From the IMG/VR virus record IMGVR_UViG_3300022928_000019, positions 8,884 to 72,883 of that record: 64,000 nucleotides of DNA. One strand, given 5' to 3'. The number at the start of each line of letters is the position of its first letter. Position 1 is the first letter of the stretch. Shown in pieces: positions 1,422 through 62,524 of the stretch. The notes under the pieces were generated by a model. It saw only the letters and a list, made by a program, of their open reading frames with translations, was not told the origin of the DNA and made no database searches. The position numbers were made by a program, and so were the translations under genes. Source of the DNA: a virus.

Positions 1422-1443
1422 ACAACCTAGATATCTAGGTTAC
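1422..1443 (+). promoter_or_regulatory. 22-bp junction motif copy
   Basis: ACAACCTA-GATATC-TAGGTTAC, 9 nt before the ATG at 1453. Confidence 0.7.
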
Positions 1444-1452
1444 AATATAAGC

Positions 1453-4400
1453 ATGGCAAGCAGCATTATCGCTAAATATCGGGAGCATTTAGCCTCTCAA
1501 GGAAAAGACTCAACTCAAACTACCGATAAGGATCTAGCATTGGAGTTATACTCTGCACTCACTGAGCAGAAGAAGGACTTCGAGAAGTTTGCCGAGAACA
1601 GAGGTGACCCTGAGTTTGCACAACTTGTAAGAGATGCCTACGAAGAGAATAAAACCTTTAAGGGCAGTGCAGTTGATTCCATACCGGCAGAGTATTACAA
1701 TCGTAAGACAGGTCTGCAGAGAGGTCTATCGGTGGGTGCAGGTGCAGTTGGGATGGACGATACTGCTAGGGACTTGATGCGAGACGCTAATCGAAACGAA
1801 CGCAAAGCTAACAAGTATCAGAAGAATATATTTAATGACATACAGATGATCGATGATCCCATCGATGGTCTTAAGTATGTGACTCAAGCTATAACAAGCA
1901 CTGCAGTAAGTGTCGTACCCGACATGGCTTTATCTCTGATTACAAGAGGAGCAGGAGGCAAGATTCAAAAGAGCCTAGAGAAAGGCGGGAAACTCAAGGA
2001 TGTTCGCAAGAAACTTGAGAAGACCATGGGAGAAGGCTATGGCAAGAACATAGGTACAGTAGCAGGTGCATTTGGAACTTCTGCAGTCGAGAACACAGGT
2101 CATGTCTACGGAGACTTGTATGAGTATACCAAGCTAGATCCTAGCGATGAGAAGTATCTGTCTCCTAGTGAAGCTCGAGCATTATCAATGGTAGGTGGTG
2201 GTGCTTCTGCTACACTAGATTCCGTTCTGCCTGTATGGTTGGTGGGTAAGTTGTCTAAGAGCATTGGGGCAGATGCTGCTCAGAAGGAAGTCACCAAGAT
2301 GTTTAATGGCATGCCCGAGGGTATGGTTCTATTGGCAAAGGGTACTGCTGGGGAGGGCGTGACCGAGGGTCTTCAAGAAGTTGTACAGATGCTCACAGTC
2401 AAGTATCATACTGACGAGGAGTGGTCTCCGCAGGATTGGAACAGATTGATAAATGCATCTGTCATGGGTGCAATTGGAGGTGGTGCAGTAACAGGTGGTA
2501 CGGCTGCTATAGGAAGAATGCTTGAGGCTCCTGAGACTAGACCATGGGATCCTAAGCTTGAGGAGGTGGACACAAAGAAAGAGCGTGAGGAGATAAGGAA
2601 TCGCAATGCTCTAAGGAGATATGCAGACCTTGAGGTCGGTACAATTGTTAGCCCTGCAGGATCCGACAAGCTTGCCCGAGTGGTATCAAAGAATGAGGAG
2701 GATTCAACAGTAGTAGTAGAGTTCAGAGACGGACTCACTCAGCGCATGGATCCAACAAAGCTTAATGTAAAGCAGGATAAGAAAAGGGTAATTAAAGAAG
2801 AAGACCTGGAGAGCTTTTCAGATCAGAAGCTAGAGGAATTAAAAATATACTCACCGAAACTAACCTCAGCTATTGAGAAGGAGCAGGAAAGAAGAAACGT
2901 TGAGGTAGAGAAAGATAACACACTAAAAAGATTAGACACTGCCATAGAGGTATCTGAAAAGGGCAACCAAATCATAGCTGTAGATAGCTCGAGCAAAGAG
3001 CGTATACACTCAGCAACATTTACCGAGGAGGATGGCTTACTTGTACTAGATAACGAGTCTAAGGATAGCGAGAACGATCAAAGGGGAGACCAGGCAAGAG
3101 AACTTATACATAAGCAATTAAAAGCCAAAGCCAAGAAACTTGGTATGCCCTACAAGATTGGGGACGTTATCGAGTATCCACTAAGCGCTAGTGAGATTAA
3201 TCAGATCGACTCAAAAGCTGATTTGCTTGTCGAGTATGGCAGACTTAGGGCTAGATACAATCTACTTGGCAGGAGGGAACCTGAGACTGAAGAGCGTTTA
3301 ATCGCTCGAATGCAAGAACTAGGCATGATTAGCCTAGACCGAAACAACAGGCCAATCCTTGGGGAGGTAGAACTAAAGAAGGGTAGTAATAGTAGGTTAC
3401 TAACTACAAATCCTGAAGTTGCGAGCGTACTGTCGGGTTCAATATTTACCGACTTGGAGGCAAATCTTGTTGGCTATGAAGATACACTTAATGCCTCACA
3501 GATAAACGATAAGTTTATTCTTAAGGAAGCAAAAGCAATGCTAGGAGATATGGCTGAGACCATTGATGGCCTTAATCATTCTGATGTTGCTAGGATTGCA
3601 GAAGGAGCGACCGAGTTATTTAAGAAGCACTACCTCGATGAAGATGGTGGGTGGAAGGCCGGTAAGACAAGAAAGGACATCGAAGACGAAGAGGCAGAGA
3701 GGCAAGAGATTGCCTTGATGCGTAAACAAGAGTCAAAAGATAGATTCGATTTAATCAAACCGCAAGTTGGTAACTTTGTACAAATTGCAAAGGGACAAGC
3801 TCCTCAAAAGATTACAAGTGTAGATGAGGAGAATTTTACTGTTAGAACCACAGAGGGTGGGGATAATGACATATCAGCTAGATCCATAATTAGGCAGGCC
3901 GAAGAAAGACCACTTGAGAGAAATGGTGAGTTTGTTACTGAGCTTAATAGCGGAAAGGTAAGAAAGAAGGTCGTAGTAACAGGCAGTGATACAAATGGGG
4001 AGTATCGAGGAAGGAAGTCACTAACTGTAACTTTTGAGAAGAATGGGGATATCATATCGGTTACCGATTCCGAGAATAATTACTACTCCGATGCCAAGGG
4101 ACTGTCGGTTGATGATGATGAGTTTCAATCTACCTTAGCAAGTATTACGCTCACTAAGGTTGAGCAGAAGGATCCACCAACCCCTAAACCACAGAAGGTT
4201 GCTGATAATATTTTTAGGATCGGTAACACAATCGAGGGTTCAGTGCTTCAAGTTAATGGATCCAAAAAGATTGGTAAGCATGAGTTAGTCCCAGTACTCA
4301 CGGATAATACAGGTCGGGTCTCGGGCATCAAGGTTGGTGATGAAGAACTGACATTCGATGATCCTGTTCCTGCAAGTGAGTGGGTTGAGACTGCTAGGAC

Positions 4401-7400
4401 TAAGCTTAAGGCAGAGGGCATGTATGGAAGACAGACCTTGAAGCCCACTCGTGTATTCAGGAAGCCAAAGAATGAGCTATTGTTTAGGAGCAGAAATGAC
4501 TCCATCATAACTCCTCCAATAAATATCAAAACAGTTGAGGTGGATGAAGAGGATCCTGCGAAAGGGTTCGATGAGCTTTTAGCTGATGTAGATAAAAGCA
4601 AACTTAGTGAGAGCAAAAGCACTAAGACATTGATAGCCCTAAGGTACTTCTACCCAGGGTCTGATCAGCCAGCTATTCTTTTGAGAAGAGTAGCATCCTC
4701 TAAGGGGGATGTTGTCATTAGGGATATGAAGCGTAAGGGCGGTAAGACTTTAGACCCCCTTACAGATACATCTAGTTATTCCATTAAGATGAATAGCGAT
4801 CAATATTATGATGCGCTAGAGGGTGACGAGAGAATTGAGCCAGTAGCATTATTAGAAGTAACAGAAGAGGTTAATGTAAATACCGACTTTGATACGGAGC
4901 AGGAATTTAACTTAGCACTAGATCCATTCTTGGATAAGTCTAAAGTAAGGCTAGACCCAATGGGTATATTGGAGGGCATCGATACTTCTATCGAGCAGAC
5001 GGATGACCCCGAGGTAGAGGAAAGACTTAGACTCCAAAGGAATAGGATAGAGACCATGGTTCAGGATGAAGATGGTCAATTCAATCCACTGCTAGAAATC
5101 TTTGGGTTTGTTCCTGATAATACAATTTCCTCATTCAAGGAAGAGATCGAAAAGAGGCTTCCGGCAATTAAGGATAAGCAATTAAAAGCAAAAGGTAGGA
5201 AGATACTTAAATCCGATCAACTTAGGATACTTGATGTTACTGAGTTCTTGGGTGGTATTGCTGAAAAGAAAGGTTCTTGGCGAGTAGGAATAAGAGCCTT
5301 GGGTGATAATGGTGAAGAGTATCAGTCTTTAGATAAGGTTATTACCACAGCTCTAAATGAATTCTCAAAGAGAGGGTACAAGCCCCGAGCGGAAAAGGGT
5401 ACAGGCACGGATGCAATGTCTCGGGCAGTAACCTCACTGCTAGATGATGAGAGAGTTAGTGATCAGACTGGAGATAAAGGATTTAGTGACTCGGGTGACA
5501 TCCAGGATGAAAATGATATTGAGGGCAGTCAGCTACAAGATTCTATAGAACAGTCAGAGGCAGATGAGGTCACCTTAAATGATGGCTTGGACTCATACAT
5601 GGGAGATGGTGGCGATGAGCAACCCATGGTTATCAGTGATGTGGAAGAGCCTATCGATCAGATTTACGTGGAAATGGCAGAGAATGCCATCGCTAATCCG
5701 AAGGTCAGGCCTGAGGATAAGGAGCAGATAAAGTTTTCACTTTCGGTGTACAAGAACTCTAATCCTACTGAAAGAGAATCTAAGAGAGAAGAGCTTGTTA
5801 TGCTCCTAGTTGAGGCAATTAATATGGCTAATTCTGAGTCTGTTGGTGAGATTGCAAGTACCCCTGATGTAATAGAGAGGGAGATAGCATCTTCAATAGA
5901 GAAGCCTACATCGCCTCCGCCACTAGCCCAAGAGTTGATCGAGGAGAACTCAGTCTCACTTCAGAAGTTTTTTGGTGGTGCAGTCATGGATGGCGAGCCG
6001 ATACGGCTAGAGGCATATATCAATCGAATGCTCAATACCATAGTGGGTGAGGGTTCTGTTGATTCAGATATCTTAGACATGGCTCAGCAGTTAATGTCCC
6101 ATCCTTATGCCAAAGACCTTAATGTAAAGTTTGAGTCTTGGGACAACTTCAAGAAAGGTGTCAGTTCGGACGGTAGGAATGGTAAGATCACGAGGGCATA
6201 TCTGCGTGGCAACACTATTGTTATGGGGCCATTCTATAAGCTTAAGCTAGATAGTGACTTAACTGCTGATGACCATATAAGGGTCACCTTGCTCGAGGAG
6301 ATTGCCCACAGTGTTTTAGACAAGGCAGTAAATGTTGCTGTTCTCACCAATAGGCTAGGAGAGTTGCCTGCTGATGTCAGGGGAGTCATATCCAAGGAGA
6401 AGGCAGACAAGCTATATAGAGAGACTGAAGAAATCATGTCTTGGCTCAGAACCCAAACGGATGGCAGGTACTACCAAGGGCTACTGAATAAAAAAGAGTT
6501 TTGGGCAAACTTTGCAACTAATCCTGACTTCAGGAAATTCTTAAATCGCCCGATGCCACCTCAGTTAAGGCGTAAGTTTCAGTCTAGATTCGAGAGAGTA
6601 ATAGACTGGCTCTTAGATTTAGCTAGCAAGATTTTCGATGCCGACTTCACTAGACAAGCTTCTACCTTAGATGTTATCAGAAAAAGATACCGTACGGTAT
6701 TGCGTACGGCTGATAAGTTAGCAGCAGCTGATGTTGACATATACGCTACAATGAACAGCGAGAGCAGGGGGAACATCAACTCTGACCTCGGAATAAATTA
6801 CAATATACAAGATGGAAAAACCCAAGATAAAACCTTTTCGTCCCTCCCGAAAATTATTGCCACCACGGAAAACCTCAGCGGAAGAGATGGCAAAGATTCC
6901 TTCTACCGTGCCGCTGTCGATAGCGGATACGAAATCACTAGACAAAATCTTAGGAAAAAGCTCGAAGGACTCCCACAAAAAATAGGCACCGAGCATGGTG
7001 CGTACTTTGATCACGATGCAGGTCGTGCAATCAAGGTAACTAGGATTCCTGAAAGCATGATGTCCTTCGGGCATTTTTACGATGTCGGGAGATACATTAG
7101 GGATAAGCACAATATGAATCTCCTCTTTGGGGATGATATTCAATTTGTTGGTGTTAGCCCTAGGGAAGACGGAGATTATGCGATCATCACATCACAACCT
7201 TTAATACTAGGAAGGGAAGCTACATCTGATGAGATCATAGCAGATTTAGAGGGCAGGGGGTACAAGATAACAATGACCCCAAATTGGGAGGACAATGGGG
7301 CTACCCAGGAGATCAGTGCTATTTCCGAAGATGGAACAATTGAACTATCTGATATTGCTCCCAAGAATGTTTTAGTCGATAACGAAACTGGCGAGCTTGC

Positions 7401-12351: not shown

Positions 12352-12770
12352 GTGACAATAAAAAGTCAGGTACTTACTATGAACAATTATTTATATGCGA
12401 GTGCCTAAATAAGGGAATGGATGTTTCAGTACCCATAGGTGACTACAACCAATACGATGTAATAATAGATACAAGTAAAACCCTCTTTAGGGTTCAGGTT
12501 AAAGGTACAGCAAGTAAAAGGAGGGACAGAAGAAGTGGCTATAGTATAACCACAGGAATGGGTCGGCATACATCCAAAAAGACTAGGTACCAGGATGATG
12601 CATATGATATACTAGCTGCTCTTGTTATCAGTGATGGTTATCAGTATTGGTATATAATACCCAAGGATAAAGTTGGCACAAATTTAACACTAAAATTATT
12701 CCCATCTCCGGACAGTAAAGCAAAGTGGGAGAAATATAGACATGGGTGGGATTTAATTTGTAAGATGTAA
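12348..12770 (+). CDS. PD-(D/E)XK endonuclease (intron-associated/PDDEXK_5-like)
   Basis: G..YE..F...G.DVS.P.GD...YD.IID......RVQVK pattern. Confidence 0.8.
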   Translation: MSDNKKSGTYYEQLFICECLNKGMDVSVPIGDYNQYDVIIDTSKTLFRVQVKGTASKRRDRRSGYSITTGMGRHTSKKTRYQDDAYDILAALVISDGYQYWYIIPKDKVGTNLTLKLFPSPDSKAKWEKYRHGWDLICKM

Positions 12771-12788
12771 CCTAATAATCTAGGTTAT
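12767..12788 (+). promoter_or_regulatory. 22-bp junction motif copy
   Basis: GTAACCTA-ATAATC-TAGGTTAT; contains the upstream TAA stop; ATG at 12796. Confidence 0.7.
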
Positions 12789-16011: not shown

Positions 16012-16035
16012 TTTGTTACACTCCTATGGGTTAGG

Positions 16036-18285
16036 TTACACATGAGCAAGCTCTAAACTCTTAGCTTGCTTAGCGAGTTTGTCTCGCAGTTCCATCCACT
16101 CGAGTTCCATCTCTATCTCACTCTTAGTCTCAATGAGATCCTCATCAAAACTAAGGAAGTGGTCAGCCATTATATCATCAACACTACCATCTTGGTAATC
16201 CACTGGCACATACTCGCCTAGTATGCACATGGTGGCAGCGTCTCGCTTGTCTGCTAGCTTGTCAAACATGGACTCCTCAATTGTATCTTTGCTAAGAAGC
16301 ACAGTAATATCTGCATCCCTCTTAGAGTTTACTCGGTACACCCTACCTAGGGCTTGATGGAATGACCCATAGCTCCATTCGAATGATCCGATTATCATAT
16401 TGGGGCAATCAGGAAAGCTATGTCCAACTGCACACTTAGCACCCATGAGCAGTACTTGTGTATCATGCCTCCTGAATTGATTAGCCTCCCGAGCATGGTC
16501 TGATGCATTTGAGTCTATCCTAGAGAACGAAACATCTGCGTCCTCTAGTCTGTTGGACAGTTCATCTGTCTGACCTATGCATGATGATATATGAATGACC
16601 TGCTCACCTTGTGATATGTACTTATGTACAAGCTCGAGCGTGGTGATAAGCTTGGGATTGAAGTTAGATGACACCACTCCTTCATTAAATGATCTACCTG
16701 CAGGATCTGCACATATACCACGTAGCCTCTGCAACTGAACTCCATAACATGTCTTTGGATCCTTGTATGGTATATTCTTAATATCTAGGTTGTGGGCATA
16801 TAGTTTCTTTTGGGCATATCCCAATGGCACTCTGAGTGTCTTTACATTACACTTAACTACATCAGGGTTACATTGCTCCTTGGATATGAAAGCAACGAGT
16901 GACTTAAGGACTTTGAGTAATCTCTGAGCCTGACTGATAATTGGACTAGTCTTAATACATGAGGATCCATTTCCCCTGATAGCCTCCTCGGTGTAGTCTC
17001 TCTCACGTGTAAGGAATGTGCTACAAAATGTAGCCTCATCCTCTAGTGCATATGGCCACCTAGGATTACTCTTCTTGCCATGAAACCAATTCGGTACTGC
17101 GAGCCATCCTAGTATAGGGAATATGTTCGGTAGGATATTAGGTATGGGTGTAGCAGTTAAGGCATACCTATACTTAGGTTGAAGTCTAATGATTGCCCGA
17201 GTTATCGCTGAGTCTAGTGACTGCATGATGTGAGCCTCATCGAGCATAACACAATCAAAGTGGTGTCCTGCTATGCTAGATAGACTAGGCTTCAGCACAC
17301 AAGTGAATCCATTGTGAGTTTGCCCGATGCCACAATGATATTCGTTATCTACCGATGGAGGGTTATCGGGATCCCATGGTGCATTGTAGCCAAGGTCTCG
17401 CATCTTTGACCTAAGCAATCTCTCACGATCCTGTGCTGCCCATGATCTAGGTATAGTTTCTATACCACCATTGAGGAAGAATGCAGTCGGGTAGGTTATA
17501 TAAACACCTGTCGGCAGTGTGCCATCACTACGAAGATGTTTGTAATAGTCATCAGCAGAGAAGATTGTACGCACTTTTGTGTCGGGTGAGAACTTAGCCA
17601 TCTCTGCGATCCATTGAGCGGGGTCATACTTCTTCAGCCTACCATCGGAACTTTTGACAGTACCCTTGGGTGCTACCAAGAGAGTACGCCTAGCATTCTT
17701 TAGGGAGTTCAATGCGATTGCCATGCATGTCTTACCTGTACCTACATCTCCACACACTAGTGCCTGATCAACACATGCCACTCGAGCAATGTAATCAAGC
17801 TGACCAGGATAGAAGGTAAAGTCATTTATTTCTTCTAGTACTCTGCATTTATCCTTAATCCGATTGAATGCCTTGGGTCTAAGTTCAGCAACAGTCTTAA
17901 CCTCGGGCATCTCAAAGAAGTCCCACATCTGAATAGATGTAAGTTCGTAATCTCCAATAGGATTATCCCGAAAAACGAACTGCCTCTTTCTGTCATCAGT
18001 GAATGCATATCCGGCATCAACGCCCGATCTCTCGATGTCATGATCTACCACATAGGTTCGACCACTCTTCTCGGTGTGCATCTTCTTCTTGGACACTGGT
18101 CTAGTGTATGAATACTTGAGTCTCTTAAAGGTGTAATCTTTACCTGCAGTTACGCGAGGTAACAATGTCTTGGTCTTAGAGCTAGGTGTTTGCTTAGCAG
18201 TCAAGACCTTCAACTCATCCACCATCCCGACCAACTCATATGGGGTCAGAGGGAGTAGGGGAGGAGAGGTATACTTATACTTCAT
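16036..18285 (-). CDS. SNF2-family helicase/ATPase
   Basis: GDVGTGKT Walker A, LDEAH, LTATP, QALGRVYR motif VI. Confidence 0.88.
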   Translation of the reverse strand: MKYKYTSPPLLPLTPYELVGMVDELKVLTAKQTPSSKTKTLLPRVTAGKDYTFKRLKYSYTRPVSKKKMHTEKSGRTYVVDHDIERSGVDAGYAFTDDRKRQFVFRDNPIGDYELTSIQMWDFFEMPEVKTVAELRPKAFNRIKDKCRVLEEINDFTFYPGQLDYIARVACVDQALVCGDVGTGKTCMAIALNSLKNARRTLLVAPKGTVKSSDGRLKKYDPAQWIAEMAKFSPDTKVRTIFSADDYYKHLRSDGTLPTGVYITYPTAFFLNGGIETIPRSWAAQDRERLLRSKMRDLGYNAPWDPDNPPSVDNEYHCGIGQTHNGFTCVLKPSLSSIAGHHFDCVMLDEAHIMQSLDSAITRAIIRLQPKYRYALTATPIPNILPNIFPILGWLAVPNWFHGKKSNPRWPYALEDEATFCSTFLTRERDYTEEAIRGNGSSCIKTSPIISQAQRLLKVLKSLVAFISKEQCNPDVVKCNVKTLRVPLGYAQKKLYAHNLDIKNIPYKDPKTCYGVQLQRLRGICADPAGRSFNEGVVSSNFNPKLITTLELVHKYISQGEQVIHISSCIGQTDELSNRLEDADVSFSRIDSNASDHAREANQFRRHDTQVLLMGAKCAVGHSFPDCPNMIIGSFEWSYGSFHQALGRVYRVNSKRDADITVLLSKDTIEESMFDKLADKRDAATMCILGEYVPVDYQDGSVDDIMADHFLSFDEDLIETKSEIEMELEWMELRDKLAKQAKSLELAHV

Positions 18286-19166: not shown

Positions 19167-19202
19167 CTCTCATCCTTTCTTTGTTGGTTGTTTAAAATAA
19201 AT

Positions 19203-19369
19203 TCAGTCGGGGGCAGGTTTTTGGTCATCACGTGGATTTGTTGCCCACGCTCGCATTATCCCTTGCGACCTTGCCCGAAGGCTTCTCCACCTTAGATGCA
19301 CTGAATATAGATGCACCTAAGGCTCAAAATGGAGGCATTAAAGATCGCTCCCTAAGAACCCCCGACTGA
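19203..19369 (-). ncRNA. Candidate multi-stem structured ncRNA
   Basis: 11-bp closing stem (19203-19213/19359-19369) enclosing four hairpins, including a cUUCGg tetraloop; G-U pairs work only on the minus strand. Confidence 0.65.
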
Positions 19370-19372
19370 TAT

Positions 19373-19394
19373 GTCACCTATGATACTAGGTTAC
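19373..19394 (-). promoter_or_regulatory. 22-bp junction motif copy
   Basis: Minus strand GTAACCTA-GTATCA-TAGGTGAC, 3 nt before the ncRNA stem; contains the stop of the 19386 ORF. Confidence 0.7.
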
Positions 19395-20131: not shown

Positions 20132-20153
20132 GTAATACAGGTATATAGGTTAC
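20132..20153 (-). promoter_or_regulatory. 22-bp junction motif copy
   Basis: Minus strand GTAACCTA-TATACC-TGTATTAC; contains the methyltransferase TAA; ATG 3 nt later. Confidence 0.7.
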
Positions 20154-21623: not shown

Positions 21624-21645
21624 GTAATATAAAAATATAGGTAAC
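21624..21645 (-). promoter_or_regulatory. 22-bp junction motif copy
   Basis: Minus strand GTTACCTA-TATTTT-TATATTAC, 1 nt before ATG 21622. Confidence 0.65.
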
Positions 21646-22411: not shown

Positions 22412-22462
22412 GTTATATAATATATTAGGTTACAATTATTGTCGCTAAAAAACGTAGGTTAT
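22412..22462 (-). promoter_or_regulatory. Two tandem 22-bp junction motif copies
   Basis: Minus strand ATAACCTA-CGTTTT-TTAGCGAC (22441-22462) and GTAACCTA-ATATAT-TATATAAC (22412-22433). Confidence 0.65.
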
Positions 22463-25622: not shown

Positions 25623-25644
25623 GTTATTTGGTTATTTGGGTTAC
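25623..25644 (-). promoter_or_regulatory. 22-bp junction motif copy (degenerate)
   Basis: Minus strand GTAACCCA-AATAAC-CAAATAAC, contains a TAA stop. Confidence 0.5.
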
Positions 25645-26511: not shown

Positions 26512-26533
26512 GTTATTCATATATCTAGGTTAC
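26512..26533 (-). promoter_or_regulatory. 22-bp junction motif copy
   Basis: Minus strand GTAACCTA-GATATA-TGAATAAC-ATG; contains the upstream TAA. Confidence 0.7.
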
Positions 26534-28193: not shown

Positions 28194-28215
28194 GTTATTT
28201 ATTATTCTTGGTTAC
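28194..28215 (-). promoter_or_regulatory. 22-bp junction motif copy
   Basis: Minus strand GTAACCAA-GAATAA-TAAATAAC, 2 nt before ATG 28191. Confidence 0.65.
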
Positions 28216-29897: not shown

Positions 29898-29919
29898 GTT
29901 ATTTAGTATAATAGGTTAC
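29898..29919 (-). promoter_or_regulatory. 22-bp junction motif copy
   Basis: Minus strand GTAACCTA-TTATAC-TAAATAAC, 3 nt before ATG 29894. Confidence 0.7.
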
Positions 29920-30336: not shown

Positions 30337-30358
30337 GTTATATAGATATATAGGTTAC
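30337..30358 (-). promoter_or_regulatory. 22-bp junction motif copy
   Basis: Minus strand GTAACCTA-TATATC-TATATAAC-ATG (0-nt gap). Confidence 0.7.
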
Positions 30359-31887: not shown

Positions 31888-31915
31888 GTGTTACCTAATG
31901 ACCATTAGGTTACAA
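31888..31915. other. dif-like 11-6-11 palindromic site (wider-spaced variant of the junction motif)
   Basis: GTGTTACCTAA-TGACCA-TTAGGTTACAA at the divergence point. Confidence 0.45.
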
Positions 31916-32025: not shown

Positions 32026-32047
32026 GAAACCTAGTAAACTAAGTAAC
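32026..32047 (+). promoter_or_regulatory. 22-bp junction motif copy
   Basis: GAAACCTA-GTAAAC-TAAGTAAC upstream of ATG 32059. Confidence 0.6.
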
Positions 32048-35827: not shown

Positions 35828-35849
35828 GTAATCAAGATAAATAGGTTAC
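35828..35849 (-). promoter_or_regulatory. 22-bp junction motif copy
   Basis: Minus strand GTAACCTA-TTTATC-TTGATTAC, overlapping the stop of the LamG gene. Confidence 0.65.
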
Positions 35850-36935: not shown

Positions 36936-36957
36936 GTTATCAAGTATATTAAGTAAC
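36936..36957 (-). promoter_or_regulatory. 22-bp junction motif copy
   Basis: Minus strand GTTACTTA-ATATAC-TTGATAAC, contains the upstream TAA. Confidence 0.6.
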
Positions 36958-38131: not shown

Positions 38132-38354
38132 TGTTTCTTAGAAAACTAGGTTTCACTCTGGGAATACCTGTTCCTATTCTTTCGCCATTTTTATCCCAAC
38201 CGCGGATTTGATCTTTTGCCCAGAATTTATCTACTGCTTGATCAATCTCTAACCTTATTTTGTGAAACTCCCCGGGCGAGAAATAAAGGGGCAGGGGAAT
38301 TTCCCCCGCCCCATATGACCCTACCCCAAGGTCATGAAGTAGATTCTTGTCCAC
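38115..38354 (-). CDS. Hypothetical protein
   Basis: 79 aa, overlapping operon arrangement. Confidence 0.5.
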   Translation of the reverse strand: MDKNLLHDLGVGSYGAGEIPLPLYFSPGEFHKIRLEIDQAVDKFWAKDQIRGWDKNGERIGTGIPRVKPSFLRNNEYSI

Positions 38355-45088: not shown

Positions 45089-45110
45089 GTTACTTAATTA
45101 TTTTGTTTAC
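45089..45110 (-). promoter_or_regulatory. 22-bp junction motif copy
   Basis: Minus strand GTAAACAA-AATAAT-TAAGTAAC, 3 nt before the int ATG 45085. Confidence 0.55.
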
Positions 45111-45125: not shown

Positions 45126-45365
45126 ATGTCAGTATTGGAGAATCAAAATATGAAGGATGAAGATATTCTAAATCAGGTCGAACCAAAACTTAAAGAGTAC
45201 TATTCAACATTTCTGTTAGTTGGATTTAAAGCAGACGATGGTGAGATTAGTTGCATCGGAGACATGGGTTGTCCTAAGGAAAAATTTAACGAAAATCTTA
45301 AGCTAAGACCTTTGCATCGACAGATAGCTAGAATGATTAAAAGAGAAAATGAGAAAAATACGTAA
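45126..45365 (+). CDS. Hypothetical protein
   Basis: Start likely at 45126 or 45150; overlaps the next ORF. Confidence 0.5.
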   Translation: MSVLENQNMKDEDILNQVEPKLKEYYSTFLLVGFKADDGEISCIGDMGCPKEKFNENLKLRPLHRQIARMIKRENEKNT

Positions 45366-45741
45366 AGGCTGGGCATGCTTTGACGAGTTTCCACCGATAT
45401 TCGTAAGGCTTTTAGCACGAGAAAAGATTCGCAACAAGAACGGAAAAACTAGTGCAGTTAGAGTTCTCACTGATGAAGAAATTGCGATCAATTCAGGCAT
45501 GGATCTATTTGATGTTCAATCTATCTCACAGATGCACGACTGGTCTGATATAAGCGTTGGTGAGGCTAAAAGGTTTTGCCAAGGCTGCAACTTCGATTTA
45601 TTTGACTGGCAAGTGAGAAATGGTGCTTATGCATTAGCTTCAAATGGAAGCTTTGCGTATCTTCGAAGTAGTCCTGATTGGATTAAAAAATATAAACCAA
45701 TGCTAATGTCATTTTTCAATGCCCAGACGAAAAAAGTATAG
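45349..45741 (+). CDS. Hypothetical protein (possible HTH)
   Basis: LTDEEIAINSG...VQSIS. Confidence 0.5.
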   Translation: MRKIRKGWACFDEFPPIFVRLLAREKIRNKNGKTSAVRVLTDEEIAINSGMDLFDVQSISQMHDWSDISVGEAKRFCQGCNFDLFDWQVRNGAYALASNGSFAYLRSSPDWIKKYKPMLMSFFNAQTKKV

Positions 45742-47909: not shown

Positions 47910-47931
47910 GTAACCCAAAAGATTAAGTAAC
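47910..47931 (+). promoter_or_regulatory. 22-bp junction motif copy
   Basis: GTAACCCA-AAAGAT-TAAGTAAC, 3 nt before ATG 47935. Confidence 0.65.
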
Positions 47932-52320: not shown

Positions 52321-52428
52321 ATCGATCTTTTGGTAATCAATTAACAGCCATGCTTGCTGTGGATTTATAGAAAAATACCAAAAGATCAGTAGTTCAGCTT
52401 TTTTTGTAAAAGTTACGCTATTTTGAAT

Positions 52429-52450
52429 GTAACCAATTAATCTTAGTTAC
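52429..52450 (+). promoter_or_regulatory. 22-bp junction motif copy
   Basis: GTAACCAA-TTAATC-TTAGTTAC, 8 nt before the capsid ATG. Confidence 0.7.
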
Positions 52451-54321: not shown

Positions 54322-54356
54322 GCGCTAAGCCTCTCACATCTCACATCACTCATGAC

Positions 54357-54398: not shown

Positions 54399-54406
54399 AC
54401 AAAGAT

Positions 54407-54802: not shown

Positions 54803-54950
54803 TGGATCAGCACACTGCAGTCGGGACATTCGGCTGGGTTTGCTCTTGGGGTCTTGCTGAATTTCATTTGATTGCAGCTAGCTCTGCTGCAACACTTACA
54901 TGTGTCTACATGATACTGGCGATTAGATCCAAACTGAGGGATACTAAGTA

Positions 54951-55874: not shown

Positions 55875-55876
55875 TT

Positions 55877-57434: not shown

Positions 57435-59136
57435 TACAAGAACACAGTTAAAGGCAAGATTTGCTGCAGGACAAAGAATAGGGGAGTCAGACTTCTCTGC
57501 CCTGATAGATTCGCTTGCCCATTTAACAGAAGATATAGCAAGCGGGTCTTTAGCAACAGGAGACCAATTGTCAGCTTTATCTAGCGGGCTTGAAGATCTA
57601 AAGATTTATGCAGAGGCAATAAGGAGTGAGTTTGATAATTACATTGGTACTCATGCTACGGATCAGTATGTAATTGAATCTGATGCTGCTGTAAGGGATG
57701 AACTTAATGCAACTATAACCCAGTCAGTTCAATCTCTACAATCAACAGATCTCGAGCTAATTGAGATTACTAGTGGGAACACAGATCTCTCATTGGAATT
57801 GTTGAGCCTATATTTGGATTCATTTGAGTCTGTTGATTCTGACATAGCAAACTTACAAGCACAGAGTGCAACTAATGAGCTACTCAATTTAAAGGTTAGC
57901 GAACTGCAGTCAGAGATAGAGTCTAAAGCTGATATTGTACATACTCATGAAGAGTATGCTACTAAAGTCAGTATTGGTAATTTCATAACTGCAGAGGATA
58001 TACCTAATTTTGCTGCAGAGATACATCAGCATACGGCTGCAGACATTACCGACCTTGATGGCATGTTTGCCACAGATGCAAGGGTATTAGAGCTAATCAA
58101 CGAGAATAGGTCTACTATAGATGTTAATGCCATCATTGCAGACGGATACTACTCAAAAGGAGAAGTAGATCAGAAGTTTTATGTTTTCACATTAGATACT
58201 TCTCAAGTTATAGGATTCAATGATGAGGTTTCTAACATTGCGACATCGATTGCCCAAGTAGAATTAGCTACTGCGAAAGAAGAAATTTCTTCTGATGTAA
58301 ATCAACTTAGCCTCGATCTTACAGATCTTACTAGTACCGTTGGAAGTAACTCTACTGCAATTACTACTAATGATACTCAAGTACGAGTAGACTTCGCAGC
58401 ATCTGATTTAACCACTTTAACAAGTGCGAACAGTTATACGGATGGAAAGATCACTGATCTTATCGGTGGTGCAGGTGATGCATATGATACCCTAAAGGAA
58501 ATACAAACTGCACTCGAAGCAGGAGATGCAACGGGTGATGTCCTTACATCACTGAACAGCATCAATCAAGAAATTGATAGCAATGACACAGAGCTTGATA
58601 ATATTAGAAAGTGGCTCGGCAGGACTGCAGATGAACTAGCGTCAGACCCTAATGTCACATCACTATCTAATGACGTAGATGCAGGTGAAACAATAATAAA
58701 TGTCCTTGATCAGACTGGTTTCTCCATAGGTGATGAAATTGTAATCGGAGAAGGTACGTCAAGTGAGGAGGCAACTATAGCAGACCTAGGGTCACTAGTC
58801 CTAGAGAGTCCACTAACTAAGAGTCATGCTGCAGGCACTAAAATTTCATTAAAGAACCCACTCATATCTTCTATTTCTTCTATATCCGGAGGTTCTGCTT
58901 CATCCTCTGATTTGGAGGCACTCCAGCAAACTGTTTCTACTCTAGAGTCTAGCATCACTACTTTGCAGACGGATCTTTCCACAGCCCAGACTTCTATTAC
59001 TTCCCTGCAAGAAGAGGTTATTGCTCAGCAGGTATTGATTAGTGAGTTGGAGCAGATGGTCGATGAAGGTAATTACTCACAAAATAATTATTTCGCTTTT
59101 AATTACGTAACTGATGGATATGGGGCTACATTTTAA
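57427..59136 (+). CDS. Tail fibre-like coiled-coil protein
   Basis: H.H motifs, GAGDAYDTLKEI, heptad repeats. Confidence 0.65.
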   Translation: MSDTRTQLKARFAAGQRIGESDFSALIDSLAHLTEDIASGSLATGDQLSALSSGLEDLKIYAEAIRSEFDNYIGTHATDQYVIESDAAVRDELNATITQSVQSLQSTDLELIEITSGNTDLSLELLSLYLDSFESVDSDIANLQAQSATNELLNLKVSELQSEIESKADIVHTHEEYATKVSIGNFITAEDIPNFAAEIHQHTAADITDLDGMFATDARVLELINENRSTIDVNAIIADGYYSKGEVDQKFYVFTLDTSQVIGFNDEVSNIATSIAQVELATAKEEISSDVNQLSLDLTDLTSTVGSNSTAITTNDTQVRVDFAASDLTTLTSANSYTDGKITDLIGGAGDAYDTLKEIQTALEAGDATGDVLTSLNSINQEIDSNDTELDNIRKWLGRTADELASDPNVTSLSNDVDAGETIINVLDQTGFSIGDEIVIGEGTSSEEATIADLGSLVLESPLTKSHAAGTKISLKNPLISSISSISGGSASSSDLEALQQTVSTLESSITTLQTDLSTAQTSITSLQEEVIAQQVLISELEQMVDEGNYSQNNYFAFNYVTDGYGATF

Positions 59137-59191
59137 AGTGGCTACTATGCAGGCTTTTCGAGTCAGTATGCCTAGATAAATCCCTTTTGAT

Positions 59192-61558
59192 ATGGCGAGG
59201 GCTACAAATGCATACAATCATTTTTCGATCACCGTTCCCGATGGAGGTAATCTGATTTCTGGTAGTAATTCGCAAGATACTGCTGGTGCTGCAAACTATG
59301 TTGAGAAGATAAATTTCAGAAGAGAAAGTGATGGTGAAGTGAGGCGTGAGGGTTGGGACTCAATATCTGCACCTGATGGAACTCCCCTAAATACTGTTGG
59401 TAACTCAGAAGATCCCATCCGAATGATTCATCAGTTTGATTCAGAAGGTAAGAAGATACTAGTATGCGCTGCAGCCGACAAGATCTACAGACTATATGAA
59501 GATACTAAGACATGGAAAGTAATAGCAGAGGGCTTGGTCAACATAGACCACTTAGGTTACGAGACAGATGTTCAGGAGGCAGTGGATAAGTACAAGTTAG
59601 AACCAATAAGATGGGAGGTTGTTTCAATTGATGGATACTGTATATTCAATAACGGAGTAGATCTTCCGTTATACTACAGAGAGTCTTGGCCTTGTGCATT
59701 CCCATTGTTTTCCCTAAGGGAACGAGGGATTGTCCGTTGTGGTACAATCGCAGAGTTAGACGGTAGGCTGTTTATTGCAAATGTGGAATACATTGATGAG
59801 ACAAAAGCAAACAACTTTGAGTACTTCATGGCAGCTGCATTCAATGCTTATATGTTGCCGGAGTTGTTTGATGAGTATGACGATTATTTTTATAGTTACA
59901 GAGTTTCCCATATGATTGAGTTTTCAGCATGGAGACTTGCAGATGATCAGAGGGAAGCTCGTGCAGCACCATACTTATTTGGTCAGAGTTACAATGGCTA
60001 TATACATAGCATGTCTGGCTCCAACATATTATCAATAAGACTAAATTTTGTATTGGGTGGGGCAAGAGACCAAGACGATTTTTACACTATGATCGTTCAT
60101 AACCCTTACTATTTCGCTACAGAGGCTGAGGCTGCTGCGTTTACCTATACACATTCTACATTTGTAGCAGGGGATAGTATTCGAATGAGCATAAAAGATT
60201 CTGCTGGAGTAGTAAAAGTTTACGATGCAGATGTTTCTAACATAGAAGCTGATTGGCTATTTGCTAATACAGTTATTACTCTTACAGATGCTTATAACAA
60301 TACATCATCGGGGGTCTTGACATCAACTGGTGATGAACAAAGTGAAACTAATCAGAATATTTCCTTGGAAGATGAGGTGCAATTTATTTTACTGAAGGAG
60401 CCTGATACTTTTAGTGTAGACGAAAGAGTAACAAGAGAGTCTGCAGATACATTTTCATTCCCGGAGGATGGATCCCAGATACTTAAGATGAATAAGCTTG
60501 GTGATAAGTTATTAGTACATAGGGAGACTGGTTATTTATCGATTAGTCGAGGCGATCAATACACTGCATTTTATTACGAAGAGAAATACAAGGGAGAGCG
60601 TGTAGCTGACTTTAGGAATACTGTAATCAATATTGATGATCAAAGGCAGGTTTTTATGGGCTACAACGGGGTTTATTTCATAACTCTTGGGCAAACTGAC
60701 CCTATGCCCTTTACTCCGTTAACAATTGGCCCAGAGGCATGGAGGCTTATTTCACCTAAAGATGTTGAGCATACCTATTCAACGATCAACCCACTTACGA
60801 ATGAAATGTTCGTGGTATGCCCGATTAATTACAATGCTTATAAGAATGGCATTGATATTGATTATGGAGTCTTAGCTTATGACATGACATTTGGAACGGT
60901 ATCTCAGATTGATGCTGCTTTCACAGCAATGTGCAGTACATATCCATCGGATATATTTGATAGCAGAAGGTTCCTAATGGCTACGCATAATGTTAAATTA
61001 ATAGAGAATCAATACTCTTCAACAAGGTACATAGACTCTGAATCTGTTACTTCAGACCTTGCCCCATTAGGTTCAAGAATCGTTAGATATGGATATGGGT
61101 CTAGAGAAGGCGAGCTAGAGCCTTATAGGCAATTTTCAAGAGACGGAGTTGATTTTGAATCCAAAATAGTTTTCGGCAAAAATGATTTCGCAGATAGGTT
61201 TTCGGAAAAAAAGCTAAGGTCTTATGCTTTGCATATGTCAGATATTTTCGACTACTCATCCTATATGGATGGGAACTATGTTGGCGATGGCTATGGCTAC
61301 CTTGATACAGCAGTTGTGGCTAAAGTTAAGTTATCTACATTCAGTACAACTCAAGTCACAGAAACAGAAGAAATCATTGAGGAATTAGAGGACATGAGTT
61401 CTGAGGTTATGATACCCACATATGCCCAAGGCAACTACTATCAAGACACCATAACTTTAACTGGTCTTGGTCAACCATTTAAGTTTATTGGACGGACTTT
61501 CGAGGTTTCAGGCGTGAGAACTAGACATACAGCGGAGGCAATGAGCAATGCCACATAG
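59192..61558 (+). CDS. Tail nozzle/stabilisation protein (beta-propeller-like)
   Basis: 788 aa; NF.....GEVRREG N-terminus; podovirus nozzle-like size and position. Confidence 0.6.
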   Translation: MARATNAYNHFSITVPDGGNLISGSNSQDTAGAANYVEKINFRRESDGEVRREGWDSISAPDGTPLNTVGNSEDPIRMIHQFDSEGKKILVCAAADKIYRLYEDTKTWKVIAEGLVNIDHLGYETDVQEAVDKYKLEPIRWEVVSIDGYCIFNNGVDLPLYYRESWPCAFPLFSLRERGIVRCGTIAELDGRLFIANVEYIDETKANNFEYFMAAAFNAYMLPELFDEYDDYFYSYRVSHMIEFSAWRLADDQREARAAPYLFGQSYNGYIHSMSGSNILSIRLNFVLGGARDQDDFYTMIVHNPYYFATEAEAAAFTYTHSTFVAGDSIRMSIKDSAGVVKVYDADVSNIEADWLFANTVITLTDAYNNTSSGVLTSTGDEQSETNQNISLEDEVQFILLKEPDTFSVDERVTRESADTFSFPEDGSQILKMNKLGDKLLVHRETGYLSISRGDQYTAFYYEEKYKGERVADFRNTVINIDDQRQVFMGYNGVYFITLGQTDPMPFTPLTIGPEAWRLISPKDVEHTYSTINPLTNEMFVVCPINYNAYKNGIDIDYGVLAYDMTFGTVSQIDAAFTAMCSTYPSDIFDSRRFLMATHNVKLIENQYSSTRYIDSESVTSDLAPLGSRIVRYGYGSREGELEPYRQFSRDGVDFESKIVFGKNDFADRFSEKKLRSYALHMSDIFDYSSYMDGNYVGDGYGYLDTAVVAKVKLSTFSTTQVTETEEIIEELEDMSSEVMIPTYAQGNYYQDTITLTGLGQPFKFIGRTFEVSGVRTRHTAEAMSNAT

Positions 61559-62027
61559 GAAGGCCCCAAGTAGAACTCCCTACACTAAGACTGTACACTT
61601 TACTGATCCTCAGCTTAAGAGGCTTCAGGAGAAAGTTAATGAGAAAGGCAACCTAAGTGAGATCCGGGAATCTGTTGAGAGAGTAGAGATATCCTCTGGT
61701 GTAAACTTAGATGTGCTTGCCCAGAAAGTTACTGACCTAGAAAATGCATCTGCTCAACTGAAGTCATCCGACATTGTAGGCAATGGATCCAATTCTTATC
61801 AAATAGGATTTACTGCTACTAGTGAAGACTCGGCATCGTATGATGTAAGTGTTAATGGGGCAGTTAAGTCTCCGGTTTCTGATTACACAATAGACTTAAC
61901 TACAAATGTAGTACAATTTTCAACAGTAGTAGCAAGTGGTGATGACATTGTCATTACACAAAGAGACGGAAGTAGCTTCTCCCATGAGGATGCTATTGAT
62001 GATTTCCTTATAGCATTATATAATTAA
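61548..62027 (+). CDS. Tail-associated protein
   Basis: VSVNG......DY.I.....V.F......GDDI domain. Confidence 0.6.
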   Translation: MPHRKAPSRTPYTKTVHFTDPQLKRLQEKVNEKGNLSEIRESVERVEISSGVNLDVLAQKVTDLENASAQLKSSDIVGNGSNSYQIGFTATSEDSASYDVSVNGAVKSPVSDYTIDLTTNVVQFSTVVASGDDIVITQRDGSSFSHEDAIDDFLIALYN

Positions 62028-62030
62028 GTA

Positions 62031-62267
62031 ATGAGCATTTTAAGGAAAATAGGTTATTCGATTTCAGAATTGAAGTCTTTGATAGCCAATAAGACTCTTG
62101 GAAGCTTAATAGATGTCCAGGTTCCTGCTCCATCTGAGCAAGCAATACTTCAGTATGTCAATGGTGTATGGACATCTGCTGGTCTTGATTCAATTGATTC
62201 AATTGATGGAGGTTTTGCAGCAACCACTGAGTTTGAGGGAGATAGTATAGATGGAGGATCTGCGTAG
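62031..62267 (+). CDS. Small tail-fibre module
   Basis: LGSLIDV.....AILQY.NG.W; IDGG repeats. Confidence 0.6.
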   Translation: MSILRKIGYSISELKSLIANKTLGSLIDVQVPAPSEQAILQYVNGVWTSAGLDSIDSIDGGFAATTEFEGDSIDGGSA

Positions 62268-62506
62268 TGGGGTATAGAAGAATACAGGTACGTCGGGATA
62301 CATCCGTAAACTGGGAGGGAGTTAATCCAGCCCTACAACAAGGTGAGATCGGCATGGACTTGAGTAATAAAAGAATGAAGGTTGGTGATGGTTTTACCTC
62401 CTGGAATGACTTAGAATACATAGATGACCCTGGGCTTGATAAAATAAGGGCAGAATATGGAAATGAAGTAACATTTGAGTTAAATTTTGATCTACATAAA
62501 AAGTAA
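62267..62506 (+). CDS. Mtd-N/hyaluronidase-like fibre anchor module
   Basis: RIQVRRDT..NW...NP.L..GEIG......KVGDG...WNDL.Y. Confidence 0.8.
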   Translation: MGYRRIQVRRDTSVNWEGVNPALQQGEIGMDLSNKRMKVGDGFTSWNDLEYIDDPGLDKIRAEYGNEVTFELNFDLHKK

Positions 62507-62524
62507 CCTAATATAATATATAAC
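62503..62524 (+). promoter_or_regulatory. 22-bp junction motif copy
   Basis: GTAACCTA-ATATAA-TATATAAC; contains a TAA stop; ATG 1 nt later. Confidence 0.7.

What the first reader, a model, noticed from the sequence alone, without database searches (positions are those of the whole stretch)
1422..62524. Genome-wide oriented 8-6-8 quasi-palindrome marking gene junctions: cassette-recombination sites or a phage-wide promoter/operator system
Seen: 20 copies of GTWAYHWA-N6-TADRTWAC (best arm GTAACCTA) at 1422, 12767, 19373, 20132, 21624, 22412, 22441, 24772, 25623, 26512, 28194, 29898, 30337, 32026, 35828, 36936, 45089, 47910, 52429 and 62503, plus a half site at 16032 before int1. All lie at gene boundaries. 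The conserved arm is usually gene-distal and flips with transcription direction. The upstream stop codon often falls inside the site (GTAACC), and in most copies the next ATG, or the ncRNA, follows within 0-11 nt with no Shine-Dalgarno. Many copies cannot form an RNA hairpin, pointing to a DNA site. Knowledge: inverted arms around a 6-bp spacer with one conserved and one variable arm is the geometry of Xer/dif and pdif sites, and a stop codon inside the site recalls integron cassettes. Inference A: a tyrosine recombinase (int1 has no evident attP) captures or shuffles gene cassettes between these sites. Inference B: the site is a factor-bound promoter for leaderless mRNAs, since TAnnnT often spans the spacer about 7 nt before the start and sites also precede the capsid and giant genes.
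Basis: partly seen in the sequence, partly recalled or inferred. Interest (0 to 1): 0.88.

Follow-up and report, generated by a model that had tools for sequence, protein, structure and literature searches.

The report
Phage-wide start-codon-abutting promoter-like motif
An uncultured 73-kb marine phage marks about twenty gene starts with a 22-bp signal (two GTAAC boxes 17 bp apart around an AT-rich centre) that most likely acts as a phage-specific promoter giving messages with almost no leader, not as a recombination site.

Summary
The motif is real and far above chance. The stated consensus matches 8 window sites exactly (0.04 expected). Nine more listed sites are 1 mismatch away, two are 2 away, and one (22441) is not credible. 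Read in the direction of transcription it is GTAACCTA, an AT-rich N6, then TAWRTAAC and an A. In 11 window copies an ATG without a Shine-Dalgarno follows after 0-3 nt. Across five related phage genomes, 27 loose matches have a gene start 0-3 nt downstream (0.38 expected). Relatives keep the motif before the same genes. A more distant lineage keeps the GTAAC-N12-RTAAC geometry with other inner bases (GTAACACG...). That variant is absent from two Verrucomicrobia single-cell genomes that carry an island 85-90% identical to that lineage. In 3 of 4 metatranscriptomes the capsid-gene contig starts at the motif's 3' end. One palindromic copy sits 4 nt before a conserved structured RNA. Gene order among relatives is collinear, and the one replacement examined does not break in the spacer. 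The cassette-recombination reading (A) is not supported. No phage RNA polymerase or sigma factor was found, so the reader of the signal is unknown.

The parts
20132..20153 (-). Motif copy GTAACCTAtataccTGTATTAC, then 3 nt, then the ATG of gene 19631-20128
21624..21645 (-). Motif copy, then 1 nt, then the ATG at 21622 of the DNA methyltransferase gene (20150-21622)
22412..22433 (-). Motif copy, then 1 nt, then the ATG of gene 22105-22410
25623..25644 (-). Weaker copy (2 mismatches), 17 nt before the ATG of gene 24811-25605
26512..26533 (-). Motif copy that abuts the ATG at 26511 (gap 0). The stop codon of upstream gene 26530-27237 lies in GTAACC
28194..28215 (-). Motif copy, then 2 nt, then the ATG of gene 27745-28191
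29898..29919 (-). Motif copy, then 3 nt, then the ATG of gene 29124-29894
30337..30358 (-). Motif copy GTAACCTAtatatcTATATAAC that abuts the ATG of gene 29899-30336 (gap 0)
32026..32047 (+). Copy GAAACCTAgtaaacTAAGTAAC, 11 nt before the 763-aa low-complexity gene (32059-34350). A TTGACC lies 8 nt upstream
35828..35849 (-). Motif copy 41 nt before gene 35586-35786
36936..36957 (-). Motif copy 28 nt before the in-frame ATG at 36907 of gene 35849-36943
38133..38154 (-).
45089..45110 (-). Copy GTAAACAAaataatTAAGTAAC, then 3 nt, then the ATG of the second integrase (44159-45085). This is the first gene of a leftward unit in a divergent intergenic region
47910..47931 (+). Copy after the large terminase gene, then 3 nt, then the ATG of a 66-aa gene (47935-48135). 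One RNA contig starts at 47937
52412..52450 (+). Capsid-gene signal. Three GTWAC boxes lie 17 bp apart (52412, 52429, 52446). The main copy is 52429-52450, 8 nt before the capsid ATG at 52459. RNA contigs start at 52448, 52450 and 52460
62503..62524 (+). Motif copy whose spacer and first right-arm base read TATAAT at positions 10-15, then 1 nt, then the ATG of gene 62526-63290. One RNA contig (62496-62881) runs across it
1422..1443 (.). Near-palindromic copy, 9 nt before the 3632-aa giant gene (1453-12351)
12767..12788 (.). Palindromic copy at the stop codon of the PD-(D/E)XK gene (12348-12770), followed by TTTATATAT. It may also act as a terminator
19373..19394 (-). Palindromic copy 4 nt upstream of a structured non-coding RNA
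19195..19372 (-). Conserved structured RNA downstream of the copy at 19373
   Evidence: The fold z-score is -5.1 (on 19185-19372). In a 3-sequence alignment, 14 of 45 predicted pairs show changes on both sides. The only Rfam match is sR36 at 19.6 bits, below its gathering score
24772..24793 (.). Palindromic copy inside a longer CCCCCC...GGGGG inverted repeat, between genes 24811-25605 and 24599-24754
31890..31913 (.). Palindrome GTTACCTA-N8-TAGGTTAC in the divergent region 31791-32058.
16032..16039 (-). Left arm only (GTAACCTA), followed by an AGGAG Shine-Dalgarno and the first integrase ATG (16011)
45349..45741 (+). 130-aa protein kept in all lineages, with a weak XRE-type helix-turn-helix likeness. 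It is only a candidate for the factor that binds the motif

Best explanation
The 22-bp element is the promoter signal of this phage family. It consists of a strongly kept upstream box GTAACC(TA), an AT-rich centre where the DNA is probably opened, and a second box RTAAC exactly 17 bp after the first, followed by an A. Transcription most likely starts at or within a few bases of the element's 3' end. A gene whose ATG follows after 0-3 nt is then read from a leaderless or nearly leaderless message, while genes inside operons use ordinary GGAGG ribosome sites. Because the element contains stop triplets in all three frames, it also closes the preceding gene. Fully palindromic copies can work in both directions, or may also act as a stop or roadblock. 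The element is not a host consensus. Some phage-encoded factor, still unidentified, must therefore direct a polymerase to it, most simply the host RNA polymerase. What is shown: the motif, its position, its orientation, its conservation, its lineage-specific variant and its absence from the probable host. What is only weakly hinted: the RNA 5' ends. What is inferred: the polymerase, the factor and the exact start base.
For: Enrichment and placement: there are 8 exact sites against 0.04 expected. Of 156 loose matches in five genomes, 27 have a called gene start 0-3 nt downstream, against 0.38 expected by random placement. All 16 one-directional window copies point the way of the next gene. Shine-Dalgarno-like sequences precede 3 of 37 motif genes and 164 of 436 other genes. 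Positions that my search pattern left free are nevertheless kept in lineage A: C6 25/27, A8 26/27, T15 26/27, A23 24/27, and positions 10-13 are A or T in 26-27 of 27. GTWAC pairs peak at a spacing of 17 bp, with 4, 4, 5, 10 and 15 pairs in the five genomes and at most 3 at any other spacing from 10 to 24. Orthologous genes keep the motif across relatives: the capsid gene, the gene after the terminase, the methyltransferase, the 763-aa gene and the second integrase. Lineage B keeps the same geometry with other inner bases, GTAACACG...GTAAC followed by ATG. That variant occurs 11 and 8 times in two 80-kb phage records. It occurs 0 times in 4.2 Mb of two Verrucomicrobia single-cell genomes that hold an island 85-90% identical to one of those phages. 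RNA: in 3 of 4 metatranscriptome runs from different coded studies, the capsid contig begins at 52448, 52450 or 52460. The motif ends at 52450 and the ATG is at 52459, and no loose end is reported there. One contig begins at 47937, where the motif ends at 47931 and the ATG is at 47935. A copy lies 4 nt before a conserved structured RNA that has no start codon. Consensus sigma-70 promoters are not enriched in 44000-63999 (33 against 48.6 in shuffles).
Against: The RNA data are assembled contigs. They cannot show true 5' ends or the strand, and a processing site would look the same. One RNA contig runs across the copy at 62503. No polymerase, sigma factor or other reader was found. A recognisable -10 hexamer in a fixed register is present in only 12 of 27 lineage-A copies, and no -35 is conserved. 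Three copies lie 17-41 nt from the ATG, and some palindromic copies precede no clear gene. An integrase and the capsid gene carrying the same signal is odd for a promoter of one temporal class. The host link rests on the sister lineage and on the label of the database records.
Confidence: 0.6

Rival explanations
1. The element is an operator of the stoperator kind. A phage repressor or other regulator binds the oriented copies at gene junctions and blocks or tunes transcription that starts elsewhere. The promoter-like features would then be secondary.
For: The phage looks temperate, with two integrases. The sites are many, lie at gene junctions, and are oriented with transcription, like the stoperators described for cluster A mycobacteriophages (PMC9283540, passages read). 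The two-box, partly symmetric design suits a DNA-binding protein. A conserved 130-aa protein has a weak XRE helix-turn-helix likeness.
Against: A roadblock does not explain why the ATG follows at 0-3 nt, why SD-like sequences are rare, or why RNA contigs begin at the element. It also does not explain a copy directly before a non-coding RNA. The two readings can coexist if the regulator binds on top of the promoter.
Confidence: 0.15
2. The element works in RNA. Either it is a cleavage site at which long transcripts are cut to give leaderless messages, or it is a ribosome-recruiting leader that replaces the Shine-Dalgarno, like the start-associated sequences of cluster K mycobacteriophages.
For: It is tightly coupled to the ATG and SD-like sequences are rare. 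RNA contig ends at the element's 3' end fit cleavage as well as initiation. SAS elements sit 3-7 bp before start codons, and their function is still open (PMC3203893, passages read).
Against: Most copies cannot fold, so a protein would have to read 22 nt of single-stranded RNA. A copy precedes a non-coding RNA. Copies become symmetric in divergent or terminal positions, and extra GTWAC boxes occur in 17-bp register upstream. Both features point to double-stranded DNA. The copy before the second integrase opens a leftward unit, so a further promoter would be needed inside a 260-bp divergent region.
Confidence: 0.12
3. The copies are core sites of a tyrosine recombinase that captures or shuffles gene cassettes.
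For: The 8-6-8 geometry resembles recombinase core sites (recalled knowledge). Two integrase genes are present. The region rich in copies (19-31 kb) is the most variable among relatives. One 66-aa gene directly behind a copy is replaced by another ORF in a close relative.
Against: Arm complementarity is 3-5 of 8 in most copies. Shared genes keep the same order in three genomes. The replacement breaks at 47958 and 48133, outside the spacer. In lineage B, the relative of the second integrase overlaps a tRNA gene, and the pair occurs in a bacterial chromosome, as in ordinary integration. Twenty active sites in both orientations would scramble the genome.
Confidence: 0.03

Closest known systems
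Promoters of phage single-subunit RNA polymerases (T7 class); description recalled, no paper read
   Same: A conserved sequence of about 20 bp that is specific to the phage. It ends at the transcription start, is repeated through the genome before genes of several classes, and varies between related phages.
   Different: No such polymerase gene was found (whose control was silent, and 62 ORFs scanned). The element has two repeated boxes around an AT-rich centre. The start codon follows at once.
C-box promoters of restriction-modification controller (C) proteins (PMC2632904, passages read)
   Same: A dyad-type site for a small helix-turn-helix protein lies just upstream of a gene translated from a leaderless RNA, and no recognisable -10 is present. 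The phage's 130-aa protein gave its best, though weak, fold matches to C.Esp1396I.
   Different: C-boxes lie 17-18 nt from the start codon and control one operon. Here the element abuts the ATG and marks about 20 places across a phage genome.
Start-associated and extended start-associated sequences of cluster K mycobacteriophages (PMC3203893, passages read)
   Same: Repeated, oriented motifs a few bases before ATG start codons. Upstream stop codons lie inside them. Imperfect inverted repeats have a better-kept left arm, and the consensus is subcluster-specific. Their function is unknown.
   Different: SAS contains the AGGAG ribosome-site core and is confined to non-structural genes. This element has no such core and also precedes capsid and virion genes.
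Stoperators of cluster A mycobacteriophages (PMC9283540, passages read)
   Same: Many oriented copies of one short site spread across a temperate phage genome.
   Different: Per the abstract and passages read, stoperators are 13-bp asymmetric sites bound by a monomeric repressor that terminates transcription elongation. Unlike here, they are not described as abutting SD-less start codons (recalled; not in the passages read).
PeSL promoter/stem-loop cassettes of T4-type phages (PMC2839356, abstract read)
   Same: A repeated regulatory cassette is concentrated in a hyperplastic region of small variable genes, where gene gain and loss happens next to the cassette.
   Different: PeSLs are sigma-70-like promoters plus terminator hairpins, and they recombine with each other. 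Here no sigma-70 consensus and no shuffling were seen.
Xer/dif and pdif sites, integron attC sites (recalled)
   Same: Inverted arms around a 6-bp spacer in the few palindromic copies, and a stop codon inside the site.
   Different: Most copies are not inverted repeats, and no recombination signature was found.

Membership tests
Tyrosine-recombinase core site (Xer/dif, pdif type) | Two inverted binding arms flanking a 6-8 bp crossover spacer | tested here: not met
   Arm complementarity is 6-7 of 8 at 6 of the 20 listed copies (1422, 12767, 19373, 24772, 35828, 52429) and 3-5 of 8 at the other 14.
Tyrosine-recombinase core site (Xer/dif, pdif type) | Rearrangement or gene gain and loss with breakpoints in the spacer | tested here: not met
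   Shared genes are collinear in G000, G001 and G002. The one replacement examined breaks at 47958 and 48133. Only one event and three genomes were examined, and no DNA reads were laid.
Integron attC cassette site | A folded single-stranded hairpin site at the 3' end of promoterless cassettes | tested here: not met
   The 22-mers of the start-linked copies fold at about 0 kcal/mol. The copies sit at the 5' ends of genes.
Sigma-70 type promoter (-35/-10) | TTGACA-like and TATAAT-like hexamers 16-18 bp apart at fixed distance from the start | tested here: inconclusive
   No upstream position is conserved. TTGAC-like hexamers lie 4-8 nt upstream of some copies. TAnnnT starts at positions 9-11 in 12 of 27 lineage-A and 3 of 10 lineage-B copies. 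Consensus promoters are not enriched.
Promoter of a phage-encoded single-subunit RNA polymerase | A T7-like RNA polymerase gene in the same genome | tested here: inconclusive
   There is no PF00940 match in six frames, but the tool's control rang nowhere. No polymerase was found among 62 ORFs scanned. About 25 small ORFs were not scanned. The first 2838 residues of the giant protein are not modelled.
Leaderless mRNA | Transcript 5' end at or within a few nt of the start codon, and no Shine-Dalgarno | tested here: inconclusive
   SD-like sequence is seen in 3 of 37 motif genes. Contig starts lie 11 nt and 9 nt before the capsid ATG and at its second base in 3 of 4 runs, and at the third base of the ATG of gene 47935 in 1 run. 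Contigs cannot prove 5' ends.
Stoperator-type repressor sites | Many oriented copies bound by the immunity repressor that stop elongation | not testable with these tools
   Orientation and multiplicity are met. Binding and silencing need experiments.
Start-associated sequence (cluster K) | Motif 3-7 bp before the start codon that contains the AGGAG core | tested here: not met
   The position is similar, but the motif holds no AGGAG core.

The most novel reading that the evidence does not exclude
A whole family of 73-81 kb phages, probably infecting marine Verrucomicrobia, runs most of its genes on leaderless messages. These start at a bipartite GTAAC-N12-GTAAC promoter read by a transcription component that no current profile recognises. 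That component could be a new kind of promoter-specificity factor for the host polymerase, or a cryptic phage polymerase, possibly delivered with the unexplored giant virion protein.
Probability: 0.25. Interest if true: 0.8.

Novelty: new variant of a known kind. Interest (0 to 1): 0.55.

Why it matters
Phage-specific promoters are a known kind of element, but this one has an unusual design. Two identical boxes lie 17 bp apart, the element abuts the start codon, and its symmetric form appears in both directions. It sits in a phage family with no cultured relative and no recognisable polymerase or sigma factor. If the start sites are confirmed, the element gives a ready map of the transcription units of an abundant uncultured phage group. 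It would also be a clear case of a phage in which many genes are read without leaders. Finally, it offers a handle to fish out the unknown factor that reads the signal. The lineage-specific change of the inner bases (CCTA against CACG) offers a natural specificity swap for such a test.

Tried and rejected

No tRNA and no Rfam family at gathering score is in the window.

No cultured phage relative was found by DNA or by capsid protein. The terminase has only distant matches of 22-28%.

Sigma-factor profiles: PF04542 gave none. PF08281 gave one 13-bit match inside the small-terminase gene, below cut-off.

The 3632-aa giant protein:
- It has no Pfam, PHROG or PDB-sequence match.
- The Atlas gave only 0.80-score leads to LPD38/LPD39 clusters.
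- No DxDxD or RxxxK...YG motif is kept among five orthologues.
- Its C-terminal 1153 residues have 325 relative clusters at E <= 0.001. In the 150 listed, the matched part lies at or near the C-terminal end of proteins of up to about 6300 aa.
- Two of these relatives have no Pfam domain.
- The model of the last 794 residues is all-helical (pLDDT 69.8) and has no fold match (best TM 0.16).
- This does not look like a polymerase core, but the first 2838 residues were not modelled.

The 763-aa ORF is low-complexity. The most conserved small protein (56236-56703) is a membrane protein.

Divergent gene pairs sharing one palindromic copy looked promising. Only two cases (G004 64757 and 6238) have ORFs of 41 aa or more on both sides.

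A looser search for more copies of the structured RNA found only the two known relatives.

Among the 32 RNA contig pieces listed (58 more were not shown), none covers 52314-52447 or 47904-47936. Contig depth was not used to rank genes.

A reading as an archaeal TATA-type promoter was considered, because two relatives sit in a bin labelled 'uncultured archaeon'. It was dropped for three reasons: the phage has DnaB, bacterial SSB and RusA. The island lies in a bacterial chromosome. Several contigs of the bin carry the phage motif, so they are probably mis-binned.

Literature: a search for 'GTAACCTA' with 'phage' found 98 papers, and the 10 listed looked unrelated by title and abstract. 'Verrucomicrobia, phage, leaderless' gave 5 papers, none on such a motif by title and abstract. 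No claim of absence from print goes beyond these searches. Supplementary files were not consulted.
Full report
WHAT THE WINDOW IS. The window is bases 8884-72883 of a 72,883-bp viral record that is rated 96% complete and linear. It is a tailed phage.
- Recognisable packaging and virion genes are the small and large terminase, portal and capsid genes.
- Replication and recombination genes are a DnaB-type helicase, SSB, RusA, an exonuclease and a Rad52-like protein.
- Other genes are a dNMP kinase, a DNA methyltransferase, an SNF2 helicase, an HNH and a PD-(D/E)XK nuclease, and two tyrosine integrases.
- A 3632-aa gene has no match.
- No cultured phage is close.
- The capsid protein has 47 related loci in IMG/VR.
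I fetched four whole relatives. G001 and G002 have capsids 87% identical and form 'lineage A' with the window. G003 and G004 have capsids about 60% identical and form 'lineage B'.

- The stated consensus matches 8 distinct window sites exactly, against 0.04 expected. The best arm, GTAACCTA, occurs 15 times against 1.43 expected.
- Of the 20 listed coordinates, 8 are exact, 9 have one mismatch, 2 have two, and 22441 is not credible.
- I found further copies at 38133, at 31890 (an 8-8-8 palindrome) and upstream of the window at -7208.
- My crude ORF calls cover 94.6% of the genome, yet all copies touch gene boundaries.
- All 16 one-directional copies point the way of the next gene.

ANATOMY. Read in the direction of transcription, lineage A gives GTAACCtA, an A/T-rich run, then TA.ATAAC and an A.
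- Positions my search pattern left free are strongly kept: C6 25/27, A8 26/27, T15 26/27, A16 22/27, A23 24/27. Positions 10-13 are A or T in 26-27 of 27.
- Nothing upstream is conserved except a few A/T bases.
- The right arm is less a mirror image of the left arm than a second RTAAC box. GTWAC pairs peak sharply at a spacing of 17 bp in all five genomes, with 4, 4, 5, 10 and 15 pairs and at most 3 at any other spacing.
- Some genes have three or four boxes in that register, among them the capsid gene at 52412/52429/52446 and G004 at 50510-50565.
Four or five copies are true palindromes.

LINK TO GENE STARTS.
- In the window the ATG follows after 0-3 nt at 11 copies, after 8-11 nt at three (the capsid gene, the giant gene and the 763-aa gene), and after 17-41 nt at three.
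- Over five genomes, 27 of 156 loose matches have a called gene start 0-3 nt downstream, against 0.38 expected by random placement.
- SD-like sequences precede 3 of 37 motif genes and 164 of 436 other genes, many of them GGAGG.
- The element carries stop triplets in all three frames. This explains why upstream genes so often end inside it, without any need for an integron-like mechanism.

CONSERVATION.
- Close relatives have the motif before the same genes: the capsid gene, the gene after the terminase, the methyltransferase, the 763-aa gene, the second integrase and the gene at -7186.
- Lineage B keeps the geometry and the outer boxes but has other inner bases, GTAACACGAA....attGTAAC followed by ATG.
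- Some sub-lineages lack the motif before the capsid gene but keep it after the terminase.

HOST, AND WHY THE SIGNAL IS THE PHAGE'S OWN.
- Two single-cell genomes labelled Verrucomicrobia carry the following in a chromosomal region that also holds a GntP permease, an autotransporter and a 5'-nucleotidase. One stretch of 1254 nt is 84.8% identical to G003 and covers its second-integrase-type gene and a complete tRNA-Thr. Another stretch of 156 nt is about 90% identical to the 3' end of its capsid gene.
- This points to Verrucomicrobia as host of lineage B. For the window's own lineage the host is only inferred.
- The lineage-B motif occurs 11 and 8 times in the two 80-kb phages and 0 times in the 4.2 Mb of these two genomes.
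- The signal is therefore not a general host promoter, and something the phage brings must read it.

RNA.
- Nine metatranscriptome runs hold parts of the structural region. I laid four of them as assembled contigs.
- The capsid contigs begin at 52460, 52448 and 52450 in three runs of different coded studies, and at 52519 in the fourth. The motif is 52429-52450 and the ATG is at 52459. No loose end is reported there.
- One contig begins at 47937, where the motif is 47910-47931 and the ATG is at 47935.
- One contig (62496-62881) runs across the copy at 62503, as operon read-through would.
- By the tool's own standard this is a weak hint. Contigs show neither true ends nor strand, and processing would look alike.

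A COPY BEFORE A NON-CODING RNA.
- The palindromic copy at 19373 lies 4 nt before a stretch of about 180 nt with no ORF. The stretch folds far better than shuffles (z = -5.1).
- It is conserved in G001 and G002. In a three-sequence alignment, 14 of 45 predicted pairs changed on both sides.
- Rfam has no family for it.
- In the two relatives only the left box is recognisable upstream.
- This argues against a purely translational role.

WHICH MACHINERY.
- No T7-like polymerase (whose control was silent) and no sigma domain were found. No polymerase appeared among 62 ORFs scanned in Pfam and/or PHROGs, and about 25 small ORFs were not scanned.
- The conserved C-terminal part of the giant protein belongs to a large unexplored family (325 clusters). 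It is modelled as all-helical with no fold match. That is not what a polymerase core looks like, but most of the protein remains unmodelled.
- Some copies have a TTGAC-like hexamer 4-8 nt upstream. With a 17-bp spacer this would place a -10 in the AT-rich centre and the start at about position 22-24. This suggests the host polymerase, but it holds for a minority, and a fixed-register TAnnnT is present in only 12 of 27 copies.
- A 130-aa protein kept in all lineages is modelled confidently (pLDDT 87). Its best matches are XRE-type helix-turn-helix proteins, with restriction-modification C proteins on top. The matches are weak (Foldseek E 0.04; VIA Z 4.9, rmsd 3.9 over 74 residues). It is a candidate binder and no more.

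RECOMBINATION READING.
- Shared genes in the variable 19-31 kb region keep their order in three genomes.
- The 66-aa gene behind the copy at 47910 is absent from relatives or replaced by another ORF. The break points against the closest relative are at 47958 and 48133, not in the spacer.
- The copies may still favour gene turnover by ordinary recombination between repeats, as described for PeSL cassettes (PMC2839356, abstract). I saw no shuffling.

COMPARISON AND VERDICT. In function the element most resembles a phage-specific promoter. In layout it resembles:
- the C-box/leaderless arrangement of controller proteins (PMC2632904);
- the still unexplained SAS/ESAS repeats of cluster K mycobacteriophages (PMC3203893);
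- in its genome-wide orientation, stoperators (PMC9283540).
It meets the defining features of none of these families fully. I rate it a new variant of a known kind. I give confidence 0.6 for the promoter/leaderless reading, 0.15 for a mainly operator role, 0.12 for an RNA-level role and 0.03 for recombination.

Noticed in passing
window 19195-19372 (-): A structured non-coding RNA of about 180 nt lies between genes 19386-19634 and 18282-19166. Its fold z-score is -5.1. It is conserved in G001 and G002 with compensatory changes. No Rfam family matches except a 19.6-bit hit to the archaeal C/D-box family sR36, far below its threshold.
   Followed up: partly
window about 30700-30755 (-) and 31336-31362 (-): A gene-poor stretch (30360-31360) contains four direct ACTACGT repeats about 11-12 nt apart and a run of five to six CTAAC pentamers, which contain the motif core AACCTA. 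It may be an origin of replication or a binding array.
   Followed up: no
L149 5315-10154 and the same region of L150: Two Verrucomicrobia single-cell genomes carry an island with an integrase and tRNA-Thr 85% identical to phage G003. It also holds four unrelated ORFs (one with a BT4734-like N-terminal domain) and a 156-nt piece of the phage capsid gene's 3' end. It is either a prophage remnant or a satellite-like element.
   Followed up: partly
window 1453-12351 (+): [quoted passage not shown] In the listed relatives it lies at or near the C-terminal end of proteins of up to about 6300 aa. No Pfam domain was found in this protein or in the two relatives scanned. The modelled last 794 residues are all-helical, and the orthologue alignment shows a hydrophobic stretch.
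   Followed up: partly
window 56236-56703 (+): A 155-aa membrane protein is 99% identical to that of a lineage-B contig (L128) whose capsid is only about 61% identical. This suggests recent exchange of what may be a lysis gene.
   Followed up: no
window 47935-48135 (+): A 66-aa gene sits directly behind the motif. It is absent from most relatives, where the motif is followed by the next gene, and is replaced by a different ORF in L147. A degenerate second motif-like stretch precedes 48137.
   Followed up: partly
G006 (the genome holding L147 and L148): A 1.6-Mb bin labelled 'uncultured archaeon' holds at least five contigs with capsid relatives or motif copies of this phage family (C6, C40, C43, C57 and the contig of L148). 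These are probably viral contigs binned by mistake.
   Followed up: no
window 24760-24815: The palindromic copy at 24772 is embedded in a longer inverted repeat (CCCCCCTAGTAGTAACCTAG...CTAGGTTGCTACTACGGTTGGGGG). It could be a strong hairpin at the end of gene 24811-25605.
   Followed up: no
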